From: Eledone cirrhosa
Lineage: Eukaryota
Direction of reading: 5' to 3'
Assembly (NCBI GenBank): GCA_964016885.1
Contig: OZ024740.1
Span: 252,588,001-252,652,000 of the forward strand
DNA length: 64,000 bases
The notes below the pieces were generated by a model. The model had not been told where the DNA came from, ran no database searches, and was given only the letters and a program-made list of their open reading frames with translations. This document shows positions 52,033-55,779 of this stretch, one piece after another (position 1 is the stretch's first letter; every line of letters starts with the position of its first letter). The position numbers were made by a program, and so were the translations under genes.

Positions 52033-52940
52033 ATATATATATATATATATATATATATAAATATATATATATATATATATATATGAATATATATATATAT
52101 ATATATATATATATATAAATATATATATATATATATATATATGAATATATATATATATATATATATATATATATATGAATATATATATATATATATATAT
52201 ATATATGAATATATATATATATATAAATATATATATATATATATATATATGAATATATATATATATATATATATATATATATGAATATATATATATATGA
52301 ATATATATATATATGAATATATATATATATATATGAATATATATATATATATATGAATATATATATATATATATATATATATATATATCTGAATATATAT
52401 ATATATATATATATATATATCTGAATATATATATATATATATATATATATATATATATATATATATATATATGAATATATATATATATATATATGAATAT
52501 ATATATATATATATATATATATATATATATATATATATATATATATATATATATATATATATGAATATATATATATATATATATATATATATATATATAT
52601 ATATATAAATATATATATATATATATATATAAATATATATATATATATATATATATATATATATAGGTATGTATGTATACGTACATACATATATGTATAC
52701 AGACGTACAGTAGCATGCATATATATATATATATATATATATATATATATATATATATATACATATATATACACATATGCATACAGGTACACATACATAT
52801 ATGCACGCATCAGTTTAGCCGGCGTTTATTATAACGCCGGCCGCTTTGTTCGTTTGTTTGTCAACAAAGCGAACAGCCTGAATTTATGCCATACGGTGTT
52901 AAGGCAACCACGTCACCTTTTTGTTCAACACTGACACAGG

Positions 52941-52985
52941 AACGATGTACTAGTTTCAAGCTTGTTAGCTATCATCAGCACCGTT
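52941..52985 (-). ncRNA. Minimal type I hammerhead ribozyme (representative unit)
   Basis: AACGGTG-CTGATGA-TAGC TAACAA GCTT-GAAA-CTAG-TA^CATCGTT; 7-bp stem I; palindromic ACTAGT stem III. Confidence 0.92.
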
Positions 52986-53013
52986 TACCCATCTGCCAGA
53001 TAGTTGAACGTTC

Positions 53014-53066
53014 GAAAGTATATACTTTCCTTATGAAAATTAACGGCTGAGCAGCCTAATTTGCAT
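53014..53066 (-). promoter_or_regulatory. Candidate snRNA-type promoter in each unit: octamer ATGCAAAT (53059-53066) and TATATA (53019-53024)
   Basis: Motifs lie directly upstream of the hammerhead on the same strand and are conserved in all six hammerhead-bearing units; function is inferred. Confidence 0.4.
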
Positions 53067-55779
53067 ATTGAGTGAGTTAAATCGGTCAGGCATACCGAAA
53101 ACGATAAGTTGAAAAAAAATGAAAACGAAATTTCATTTCTCACTCTTAGTATGGCACTTACTTAAATGTAAGTATGTATGTATACGTACATACATATATG
53201 TATACAGACGTACAGTAGCATGCATATATATATATATATATATATATATATATATATATATACATATATATACACATATGCATACAGGTACACATACATA
53301 TATGCACGCATCAGTTTAGCCGGCGTTTATTATAACGCCGGCCGCTTTGTTCGTTTGTTTGTCAACAAAGCGAACAGCCTGAATTTATGCCATACGGTGT
53401 TAAGGCAACCACGTCACCTTTTTGTTCAACACTGACACAGGAACGATGTACTAGTTTCAAGCTTGTTAGCTATCATCAGCACCGTTTACCCATCTGCCAG
53501 ATAGTTGAACGTTCGAAAGTATATACTTTCCTTATGAAAATTAACGGCTGAGCAGCCTAATTTGCATATTGAGTGAGTTAAATCGGTCAGGCATACCGAA
53601 AACGATAAGTTGAAAAAAAATGAAAACGAAATTTCATTTCTCACTCTTAGTATGGCACTTACTTAAATGTAAGTATGTATGTATACGTACATACATATAT
53701 GTATACAGACGTACAGTAGCATGCATATATATATATATATATATATATATATATATATATATACATATATATACACATATGCATACAGGTACACATACAT
53801 ATATGCACGCATCAGTTTAGCCGGCGTTTATTATAACGCCGGCCGCTTTGTTCGTTTGTTTGTCAACAAAGCGAACAGCCTGAATTTATGCCATACGGTG
53901 TTAAGGCAACCACGTCACCTTTTTGTTCAACACTGACACAGGAACGATGTACTAGTTTCAAGCTTGTTAGCTATCATCAGCACCGTTTACCCATCTGCCA
54001 GATAGTTGAACGTTCGAAAGTATATACTTTCCTTATGAAAATTAACGGCTGAGCAGCCTAATTTGCATATTGAGTGAGTTAAATCGGTCAGGCATACCGA
54101 AAACGATAAGTTGAAAAAAAATGAAAACGAAATTTCATTTCTGACTCTTAGTATGGCACTTACTTAAATGTAAGTATGTATGTATACGTACATACATATA
54201 TGTATACAGACGTACAGTAGCATGCATATATATATATATATATATATATATATATATATATATACATATATATACACATATGCATACAGGTACACATACA
54301 TATATGCACGCATCAGCGGCGTTTATTATAACGCCGGCCGCTTTGTTCGTTTGTTTGTCAACAAAGCGAACAGCCTGAATTTATGCCATACGGTGTTAAG
54401 GCAACCACGTCACCTTTTTGTTCAACACTGACACAGGAACGATGTACTAGTTTCAAGCTTGTTAGCTATCATCAGCACCGTTTACCCATCTGCCAGATAG
54501 TTGAACGTTCGAAAGTATATACTTTCCTTATGAAAATTAACGGCTGAGCAGCCTAATTTGCATATTGAGTGAGTTAAATCGGTCAGGCATACCGAAAACG
54601 ATAAGTTGAAAAAAAATGAAAACGAAATTTCATTTCTCACTCTTAGTATGGCACTTACTTAAATGTAAGTATGTATGTATACGTACATACATATATGTAT
54701 ACAGACGTACAGTAGCATGCATATATATATATATATATATATATATATATACATATATATACACATATGCATACAGGTACACATACATATATGCACGCAT
54801 CAGTTTAGCCGGCGTTTATTATAACGCCGGCCGCTTTGTTCGTTTGTTTGTCAACAAAGCGAACAGCCTGAATTTATGCCATACGGTGTTAAGGCAACCA
54901 CGTTATAATAAACGCCGGCTAAACTGATGCGTGCATATATGTATGTGTACCTGTATGCATATGTGTATATATATATATATATATATATAATATATATATA
55001 TATATATGCATGCTACTGTACGTCTGTATACATATATGTATGTACGTATACATACATACTTACATTTAAGTAAGTGCCATACTAAGAGTGAGAAATGAAA
55101 TTTCGTTTTCATTTTTTTTCAACCTATATATATATATATATATATATATAAATATATATATATATATATATATATATATATAAATATATATATATATATA
55201 AATATATATATATATAAATATATATATATATAAATATATATATATATATAAATATATATATATATAAATATATATATATATATAAATATATATATATATA
55301 TATGAATATATATATATATATATATATATATATATATATATATATATATATATAAATATATATATATATAAATATATATATATATATAAATATATATATA
55401 TATATATGAATATATATATATATATATATATATATATATATATATATATATATATATATATATGAATATATATATATATATATATATATATATATATATA
55501 TATATATTCATATATATGAATATATATATATATATATATATATATATATATATATATATATATTCATATATATATATATATATATTTATATATATATATA
55601 TATATGAATATATATATATATATATATATGAATATATATATATATATGAATATATTTATATATATATATATATATGAATATATATATATATATATATATA
55701 TGAATATATATATATATATGAATATATATATATATATATATATATATATATATATGAATATATATATATATATATATAT

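What the first reader, a model, noticed from the sequence alone, without database searches (positions are those of the whole stretch)
52667..55123. 501-bp tandem ribozyme satellite (retrozyme-like) with one hammerhead per unit
Seen: near-identical non-coding units, each with a minus-strand type I hammerhead (7-bp stem I, CUGAUGA, AGC/GCU stem II, GAAA, palindromic ACUAGU, predicted cut between 52948 and 52947). Each unit also has two hairpins (GCCGGCGTT/AACGCCGGC at 52818-52841 and CGCTTTGTT/AACAAAGCG) and an internal (TA)n. Diverged copies lie at ~6 kb and ~42 kb, and two of the three loci end in a PLE-style inverted arm. Known: minimal hammerheads with palindromic stem III occur in PLEs, non-LTR retrozymes and newt satellite 2, and can act as dimers. 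Inferred: multimeric transcripts self-process into ~500-nt monomers or circles that are copied by a PLE RT, with the built-in (TA)n possibly priming at TA targets. I cannot tell whether this family has already been described.
Basis: partly seen in the sequence, partly recalled or inferred. Interest (0 to 1): 0.9.

Follow-up and report, generated by a model that had tools for sequence, protein, structure and literature searches.

The report
Self-cutting RNA circle riding Penelope transposons
This is a protein-free 500-base repeat with a hammerhead ribozyme motif, present in about 25,000 copies, whose insertions end like those of Penelope-type transposons and which carries a copy of the host's U6 RNA promoter signal, so it is likely a small RNA that is predicted to cut itself, likely closes into a circle, and is likely copied round and round into the genome by a borrowed transposon enzyme.

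Summary
Observation confirmed: four and a half 495-504 bp ORF-less units, each with a minus-strand type I hammerhead (cut 52948|52947), plus an inverted arm. It is a dispersed mobile family: at least 24,750 hammerhead cores genome-wide, with compensatory stem I changes.

Insertions sit in (TA)n and show Penelope-like-element (PLE) marks: random 5' truncation, head-to-head inverted arms, and two fixed internal 3' ends about 60 nt apart; 26 of 26 resolved two-armed loci use one end each. Arms read through the ribozyme cut site, and arrays carry private bases in all units of both arms, which favours repeated copying of one circular monomer. Each unit holds the 12-nt element found at -78 of host U6/U6atac genes. 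A sister family (about 60% identical) shares all this.

Priming on the internal (TA)n is not supported. No linked PLE ORF was found. Cleavage, transcription and circles are untested. Verdict: a non-LTR retrozyme, a known class, with unusually informative footprints for two stated open questions: its helper element and its promoter.

The parts
52667..54903 (-). Long arm of the insertion: about 4.5 tandem units read in the hammerhead sense, 5'-truncated at monomer position ~35, 3' end at site A (monomer ~277)
54901..55123 (+). Inverted, 5'-truncated short arm (monomer 112-341), 3' end at site B; joined head-to-head with a 3-nt overlap (CGT, 54901-54903)
52931..52999 (-). Type I hammerhead, unit 1; core CUGAUGA 52978-52972; predicted cut 52948|52947
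53432..53500 (-). Type I hammerhead, unit 2, with distal stem I helix; predicted cut 53449|53448; palindrome ACUAGU 53450-53455
53933..54001 (-). Type I hammerhead, unit 3; predicted cut 53950|53949
54428..54496 (-). Type I hammerhead, unit 4; predicted cut 54445|54444
53557..53568 (-). U6/U6atac-type upstream element TATGCAAATTAG (also 53056-53067, 54058-54069, 54553-54564)
53519..53526 (-). TATA-like box GTATATAC, 42 nt after the octamer start (also 53018, 54020, 54515); predicted start site about 53495-53490
   Evidence: the start site is an inference from host gene spacing
53658..53673 (-). Hairpin CUUAC-AUUUAA-GUAAG holding 3' end site A (monomer 283-286 = 53667-53664); predicted first RT start
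53605..53663 (-). 'Tail' between sites A and B (59-62 nt) with a hairpin and a U8 run (53620-53613); site B = 53605
53224..53272 (.). Internal (TA)n tract of unit 2; its length is often array-specific; not an insertion end point
52818..52841 (.). GCCGGCGTT/AACGCCGGC hairpin; subfamily-variable
52033..52666 (.). Left (TA)n target tract
55124..55779 (.). Right (TA)n target tract
5959..6706 (-). Second insertion of the family: about one unit ending at site A plus an inverted arm
41835..42497 (-). Third insertion of the family: 1.3 units ending at site A, single arm

Best explanation
This is an ORF-less, hammerhead-bearing tandem retroelement (a non-LTR retrozyme) whose insertions carry Penelope-like-element end marks; it is likely transcribed from a built-in snRNA-type promoter, is predicted to self-cleave as a dimer into unit-length RNA that likely circularises, and is likely reverse-transcribed round the circle into (TA)n sites by a Neptune-type PLE enzyme. 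Steps: (1) Shown: each unit carries the host U6-type element and a TATA-like box just upstream of the hammerhead. Inferred: one unit drives the next, starting about 10-16 nt before the core; full monomers need read-through of a U8 run, so Pol II or leaky Pol III. (2) Shown: conserved core, covarying stem I, stem III too short to close alone but palindromic. Inferred: two hammerheads pair and cut, and a lone circle is protected. (3) Inferred from published retrozymes: a host ligase closes the monomer. (4) Shown: 3' ends at two internal sites about 60 nt apart, one per arm, with arms joined head-to-head. Inferred: a PLE protein nicks (TA)n on both strands and starts cDNA at the two sites. (5) Shown: arms cross the cut site freely and arrays share private bases in all units of both arms. 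Inferred: rolling-circle reverse transcription of one monomer. (6) Shown: some long arrays were later extended by DNA block duplication.
For: Copy number 10,718 + 14,032 cores, reversed controls 0. Stem I pair 3 occurs as G-U, A-U, U-G and C-G; 93.9% of cells paired, 0 of 500 shuffles reach the covariation score. In 53 consecutive C1 loci, 26 of 35 inverted pairs had both ends resolved and all 26 were A+B, none A+A or B+B; sister family 15 of 17 A+B, 2 unresolved. 6 of 9 inspected junctions have 1-3 nt overlap. 52 of 70 A/B ends are followed by TA-rich sequence. No pile-up of 5' ends at the cut: 12 hits (9 true junctions) against 20 at a control position. Fixed private bases: 25 in 66 loci (16 in both arms) and 9 in 28 sister-family loci (7 in both arms). 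One sister array has 0 substitutions among 18 full units and 3 private bases in all 20 pieces. The U6-type 12-mer is at -78 in three U6 promoter types and, with one change, in the best U6atac gene; it is absent within 110-130 nt of the U1 and U2 genes printed, in 0 of 3000 shuffles, and occurs once in 412 kb of background. Two co-resident Neptune-like families have the same (TA)n target and a ~60-nt tail. Literature: two internal RT starts make the PLE tail (PMC11167929); a U.U stem II base is active in axolotl and retrozyme circles exist in mussel (PMC7229834).
Against: No RNA-level evidence: cleavage, transcription and circles are untested. Li et al. found 8 of 9 predicted frog retrozyme dimers did not cleave in vitro. 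In Poseidon_Ac the uncleaved RNA was the main template and hammerhead mutants inserted normally, so an uncut multimer is a real alternative. 'Private' means absent from the other sampled loci only. A homogeneous parent array elsewhere is not excluded, and the youngest arrays came from best hits to the window unit. The 45-unit C4 array shows higher-order repeats and the C7 array a period-6 duplication, so array length is partly DNA-level. Element-to-TATA spacing is 42-43 nt against 46-48 in host genes, and a U8 run would stop Pol III before site B. Covariation rests on only two pairs, and core and stem II were partly fixed by my search patterns. In the circular fold the three core-proximal stem I pairs have probabilities of only 0.18-0.28. 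No helper PLE sharing sequence with the unit was found, so 'Neptune-type' rests on geometry.
Confidence: 0.68

Rival explanations
1. Same non-autonomous PLE passenger, but the template is an uncut multimeric read-through transcript; the hammerhead and circles play no part in copying, and arrays grow by DNA duplication.
For: PAc uses unprocessed RNA in vitro and hammerhead mutants still insert. Absence of 5' ends at the cut site fits this too. Block duplications are seen in the C4 and C7 arrays. Li et al. propose local tandem amplification after insertion.
Against: It must explain private bases fixed in 20-23 of 20-23 pieces across both inverted arms with 0-7 unit-specific changes, and equal 84-nt TA spacers in all 7 pieces of one array. 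With 5' truncation alone arrays can only shrink, so a monomer-to-multimer step is needed often. Hammerhead helices are kept by compensatory change.
Confidence: 0.22
2. The units are merely pseudo-LTR debris of an autonomous PLE whose ORF-bearing copies were not sampled.
For: End marks are those of PLEs. 24 of 57 frog retrozyme families match known repeats, nearly all PLE termini. My partner search was sampled, not exhaustive.
Against: The repeating unit closes on itself at 420-500 bp without an ORF, in arrays of up to 45 units. In 141 loci, 9 of 88 PLE-protein hits lay within 400 bp of a unit and none formed a recurring junction. 30 GIY-YIG loci and 30 other ACUAGU-motif loci showed no link. 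The U6-type element is near 0 of 14, 0 of 13 and 1 of 24 hammerheads of three autonomous families.
Confidence: 0.07
3. A classical satellite DNA amplified at DNA level, with a relic ribozyme motif.
For: A few long arrays with higher-order structure.
Against: Most loci are short and dispersed, end at two fixed sites and carry inverted truncated arms.
Confidence: 0.03

Closest known systems
Metazoan non-LTR retrozymes (Cervera and de la Pena 2020, PMC7229834; coral, mussel, axolotl)
   Same: Low-GC ORF-less tandem repeats, one type I hammerhead per unit, thousands of copies, PLEs in the same genome; axolotl HHR_Amex2 also has a U.U stem II base.
   Different: Unit 420-500+ nt against 150-450 bp. 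Here the insertion ends, inverted arms and a promoter-like element are visible. The 2020 review (PMC7761336, passages) states that retrozymes seem to lack promoters and any motif pointing to the helper.
Vertebrate and insect retrozymes as PLE derivatives (Li, Clavereau, Pollet 2026, 10.64898/2026.07.22.740005)
   Same: Non-autonomous, PLE-dependent; unit length within their 51-972 bp range.
   Different: Their evidence is co-occurrence and pLTR homology. The text has no hit for 'tail', 'promoter' or 'mollus' and no inverted-arm analysis. Here no pLTR homology to a sampled autonomous PLE was found, and arrays look born as multimers.
EN+ Penelope-like elements: Poseidon_Ac (PMC11167929); Neptune, Naiad, Chlamys (PMC8557442)
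   Same: 5' truncation, inverted truncated copy, tail at one end, microsatellite targets, RT starts internal and downstream of the hammerhead; non-autonomous multi-copy Chlamys are known.
   Different: No ORF; tail 59-62 nt (published 30-40; about 60 in co-resident Neptune-like families); tandems up to tens of units.
Newt satellite 2 and schistosome hammerhead repeats
   Same: Tandem hammerhead repeat with an internal promoter; newt uses an snRNA-type promoter (seen only as a citing passage in PMC2220036; the original paper is not held).
   Different: Newt is Pol II-driven. The element here matches host Pol III genes (U6, U6atac), not U1/U2, with 4-6 nt shorter spacing, so the polymerase is open.
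Minimal PLE hammerheads (Cervera and de la Pena 2014, PMC4209133)
   Same: Palindromic positions 15.2-16.2 and loop 3; dimer model; that paper proposes more-than-unit copying of circles.
   Different: Here stem II is short (4 bp), stem I is long with a distal helix, and the G10.1-C11.1 pair is replaced by U.U (canonical in the sister family).

Membership tests
Non-LTR retrozyme | Short tandem repeat with one type I hammerhead per unit | tested here: met
   units about 420-500 bp, longer where (TA)n has grown
Non-LTR retrozyme | GC below 50% and no protein-coding frame | tested here: met
   GC 0.34-0.35; only TA-repeat pseudo-frames of 150 aa or more touch the locus
Non-LTR retrozyme | No LTR, primer-binding site or polypurine tract | tested here: inconclusive
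   No LTR architecture; PBS and PPT not searched
Non-LTR retrozyme | Self-cleavage of transcripts | not testable with these tools
   Motif and covariation only
Non-LTR retrozyme | Accumulation of circular monomer RNA | not testable with these tools
   Needs RNA data; indirect array evidence only
Non-LTR retrozyme | Autonomous PLEs in the same genome | tested here: met
Non-LTR retrozyme | Target-site duplication longer than 4 bp when present | tested here: inconclusive
   Targets are (TA)n, where a duplication cannot be read
Type I hammerhead ribozyme | CUGANGA and GAAA boxes, NUH cleavage triplet, helices I and II | tested here: met
   GUA triplet; U.U at 10.1-11.1; Rfam match below threshold
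Type I hammerhead ribozyme | Helix III stable as monomer | tested here: not met
   Two pairs and a 2-nt loop; palindrome ACUAGU in 78 of 85 distinct copies, a share raised by the search patterns; fits the dimer type
PLE-type integration | Variable 5' truncation with an inverted 5'-truncated copy | tested here: met
   35 inverted pairs in 53 loci; junctions
PLE-type integration | Tail at one end only (two internal RT start sites) | tested here: met
   26 of 26 resolved pairs A+B; 15 of 17 in the sister family
PLE-type integration | AT-rich or microsatellite target | tested here: met
   52 of 70 ends followed by TA-rich sequence
Autonomous PLE or its pLTR | RT plus GIY-YIG ORF flanked by this repeat | tested here: not met
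   No recurring link in 141 + 30 + 30 sampled loci; not genome-wide
snRNA-promoter hammerhead repeat (newt satellite 2 type) | Host snRNA upstream element inside each unit | tested here: met
   12-nt match to the -78 element of host U6/U6atac
snRNA-promoter hammerhead repeat (newt satellite 2 type) | Promoter activity and Pol II transcription | not testable with these tools
   Spacing 4-6 nt shorter than host Pol III genes; U runs in the unit

The most novel reading that the evidence does not exclude
A self-contained RNA-circle parasite of Neptune-type PLEs, built not from a pLTR but from a captured U6-type promoter, a dimer hammerhead and two mimic RT-start hairpins. Each insertion is a fossil of twin-primed rolling-circle reverse transcription, in which one circular molecule was copied up to about 20 times in two directions; one array may even record A-to-I edits made on that circle.
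Probability: 0.45. Interest if true: 0.82.

Novelty: new variant of a known kind. Interest (0 to 1): 0.62.

Why it matters
How animal retrozymes are transcribed, primed and inserted is stated as open in the literature read (PMC7229834 Discussion; PMC7761336 passages). This family names a helper class by its integration marks, gives nucleotide-level RT start sites, offers a candidate promoter, and leaves array patterns that favour the long-proposed rolling-circle copying of a circular RNA. It also bears on why PLEs form tandem and inverted insertions and what their hammerheads are for. With young, near-identical copies and young Neptune-like ORFs in the same genome, an in vitro test is direct. 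The class itself is known, so the gain is mechanistic, not categorical.

Tried and rejected
No RNA holder listed for the unit. Six runs of unrecorded kind from four coded organisms hold it; contigs of 4 of the 6 were laid and show subfamily variants only, one giving no laid contig. Rfam at gathering score: nothing. Earlier findings of this scan: three look-ups, all empty.

Priming on the internal (TA)n: rejected. Cleaved linear monomers as main template: rejected, no 5' pile-up at the cut.

Helper search: tblastn of PLE proteins on sampled loci (in which the Hydra-like query was read on the wrong strand; redone), 30 of 150 GIY-YIG hits, and other ACUAGU hammerheads (30 of 39 hits) gave no linked ORF. 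L146 and L059 were read in full and are incidental neighbours; the other 7 near hits were judged from coordinates. Mixed junctions between a unit arm and another PLE family's end (L053, L076, L054) were A+B twice and B+B once, so deletion between neighbours explains them as well as shared machinery: inconclusive.

ADAR editing of the template: 8 A>G against 5 T>C among fixed private bases, p = 0.29, not supported overall. The old-subfamily part was swamped by low-complexity hits and not used. Position labels are one too high; one search gives the right ones. A genome-wide count of insertion ends was not obtained. Two papers were not held. A search for mollusc U6 promoters gave nothing relevant.

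Full report
Observation. The window holds four full units of 495-504 bp, a partial fifth and an inverted arm between two long (TA)n tracts. Stem II is four pairs on a U.U mismatch, a form reported active in axolotl HHR_Amex2 (PMC7229834, parts 3-4 of 6 read). Stem III has two pairs and a 2-nt loop, so it cannot close alone, but ACUAGU is palindromic, the dimer arrangement described in PMC4209133 (parts 1-2 of 4 read). Rfam gives nothing at threshold and a weak HH9 match on the right strand and place. I number the monomer from the predicted cut (1-501).

Family size. The host is an unnamed 3.0-Gb genome; its repeats reminded me of octopus genomes, which is recall and was not tested. The young core has 10,718 exact matches and the CUGACGA variant 14,032, with reversed controls at 0. 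Older subfamilies have 420-430 bp units about 81% identical to the window unit. Across 32 chosen copies, 93.9% of helix cells pair and two pairs change on both sides; stem I pair 3 takes four forms (79 of 85 distinct copies paired). Core and stem II invariance is partly imposed by my patterns.

Insertion anatomy. I fetched the 53 loci that hold the first 100 core matches on C1 and 15 stretches around best hits. Arms have scattered 5' ends and two fixed 3' ends: site A at about 277-290, in the hairpin CUUAC-AUUUAA-GUAAG, and site B at about 339-345. Of 35 head-to-head inverted pairs, 26 had both ends resolved and all 26 joined one A end with one B end; 9 had an end lost in low-complexity sequence or otherwise unresolved; 22 single arms ended at B (15) or A (7). 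Six of nine junctions read show 1-3 nt overlap, and 52 of 70 ends run into TA-rich sequence. This is the PLE pattern of truncation, inversion and a tail at one end (PMC8557442, passages), which Frangieh et al. traced to two internal RT start sites (PMC11167929, parts 1-2 of 4). The ends lie downstream of the internal (TA)n, so that tract is not the priming site; at most 2-4 nt of AU overlap the target.

Sister family. A pattern excluding this stem II found 5,442 hits, the 100 listed all of a 465-468 bp family. It is 58-62% identical, lacks a (TA)n tract, has a canonical G-C stem II base, and shares the AACA loop, the palindrome and both end hairpins. Of 17 two-armed loci, 15 were A+B and 2 unresolved.

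Template. Arms cross the cut site up to tens of times, and 5' ends do not pile up there: 12 hits, 3 of them stem III variants, against 20 at position 16. Cleaved linear monomers are therefore not the main template. Bases fixed in every covering piece of a locus and absent from the other sampled loci number 25 in 66 loci, 16 in both arms, and 9 in 28 sister loci, 7 in both arms. One 9.3-kb sister insertion has no substitution among 18 full units and three private bases in all 20 pieces; another has one in all 23 pieces with 7 unit-specific changes. In array C2a the private base and an 84-nt TA spacer are shared by all 7 pieces. The simplest reading is one monomer copied many times during insertion, as proposed for circles in PMC4209133 and PMC7229834. 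Limits: the sample is small, the youngest arrays were best hits to the window unit, a homogeneous parent array is not excluded, and PAc used uncut RNA in vitro. The 45-unit C4 array has recurring multi-unit blocks and the C7 array a period-6 repeat, so DNA duplication also acts. The window array differs internally by 0.14% and has no private base.

Promoter signature. Both families carry TATGCAAATTAG upstream of the hammerhead. Host U6 genes of three promoter types have TATGCAAATGAG, TATGCAAATTAG or TATGCTAATTAG at about -78 and a TATA box at -30; the best U6atac gene has TATGGAAATTAG at the same place; the U1 and U2 upstream regions printed lack it. Several other U6 and U6atac hits lack promoter elements and look like pseudogenes. 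The 12-mer appeared in 0 of 3000 shuffles and once in 412 kb of background, and near 1 of 51 hammerheads of three autonomous PLE families. A TATA-like box follows at 42-43 nt, against 46-48 in host genes, which would put the start at monomer 455-460, just before stem I. Pol III would stop at the U8 run at 330-337, short of site B and of the next promoter, so replicative RNA needs read-through; I favour Pol II or leaky Pol III but cannot decide. Newt satellite 2 has an snRNA-type Pol II promoter (citing passage only), whereas a 2020 review says retrozymes seem to lack promoters.

Helper. No unit was found in a recurring junction with a PLE ORF. Two Neptune-like families (clade call from the cysteine linker, recalled) insert in (TA)n with two ends about 60 nt apart, matching the 59-62 nt tail here; a Hydra-like family (clade also recalled) showed one main end. 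One Neptune-like family has copies 95-99% identical to the window ORF, so it was active recently. This makes Neptune-type enzymes the best candidates, by geometry only.

Novelty. The class is known, including in a mussel, and a 2026 preprint argues for PLE origin from co-occurrence and pLTR homology (parts 1-3 of 5 read; term check). In searches I found no report of tail or inversion footprints, array-private variants or a U6-type element in retrozymes, nor of this family (passages of an octopus repeat paper have no hit for 'hammerhead' or 'ribozyme'). Subscription papers, Repbase, Dfam and all supplements were not seen and may hold it. Verdict: new variant of a known kind. About 0.9 that it is a non-autonomous PLE passenger, 0.68 for the full circle-based mechanism; interest 0.62.

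Noticed in passing
G000:C1:30831609-30840868 (L292+L293); family loci L142-L171, L294-L308: Second retrozyme family, 465-468 bp unit, about 5,400 pattern hits, 58-62% identical to the window unit, with long two-armed arrays. In this array three private A>G changes cluster in and beside the octamer, like an ADAR footprint; not significant overall.
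   Followed up: yes
G000:C4:352454377-352477948 (L031-L033): 23.5-kb array of about 47 units with recurring multi-unit blocks: a retrozyme insertion turning into a higher-order satellite.
   Followed up: partly
window 25597-28518: Young Neptune-like PLE: inverted pLTR arm, 5'-truncated RT-EN frame (25906-27921), hammerheads at 25850 (-) and 28201 (+), and a ~60-nt tail that reads as an open frame from an ATG, possibly the ORF start.
   Followed up: partly
window 28503-30230 (+), 643-1314 (-), 32084, 42901: Hydra-like PLE frames and their hammerhead motifs, ending in (TA)n.
   Followed up: partly
window 33877 (-); L034, L051, L055, L092, L095: Second Neptune-like family, about 60% identical in protein to the first, with its own hammerhead and a ~60-nt tail.
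   Followed up: partly
window 38469-38590 and 21836-21992; L067, L074, L298: Abundant TA-targeting family with two ends about 80 nt apart and a hammerhead-like motif with a full stem III (GUC site); in one copy the first box reads UUGAUAA, like the U3-A8 variant of schistosome PLEs. No ORF found within 1.5 kb upstream in 34 copies.
   Followed up: partly
L042 4400-4660 (G000:C2:321384400-321384660): A Neptune-like pLTR with its hammerhead is joined in the same sense to monomer position 113 of the retrozyme; the arm ends with an older-subfamily tail. Possible template switch; single case.
   Followed up: partly
window 8481-8711, 18474-18817, 25120-25351, 61676-61907: 112-bp tandem duplication at the 3' end of RTE-like LINE copies (type recalled), which also end in (TGA)n and (TA)n.
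   Followed up: no
window 20706 (-): Another hammerhead-like motif with a canonical G-C stem II base; a similar motif occurs in L083.
   Followed up: no
L202-L221, L222-L241, L242-L256: Host snRNA promoters: U6 and U6atac share an octamer-like element at -78 plus TATA; U1 and U2 share TCAGT at about -57 plus a TATA-like run. A tandem U6 array on C19 carries variant U6 5' ends.
   Followed up: partly
window 42498-42832: Inverted repeat of another element abutting the 5' end of the 42-kb copy.
   Followed up: no
window 51345-52030 (-): LINE fragment (CR1/Jockey-like, recalled) cut off by the (TA)n tract that holds the insertion.
   Followed up: no
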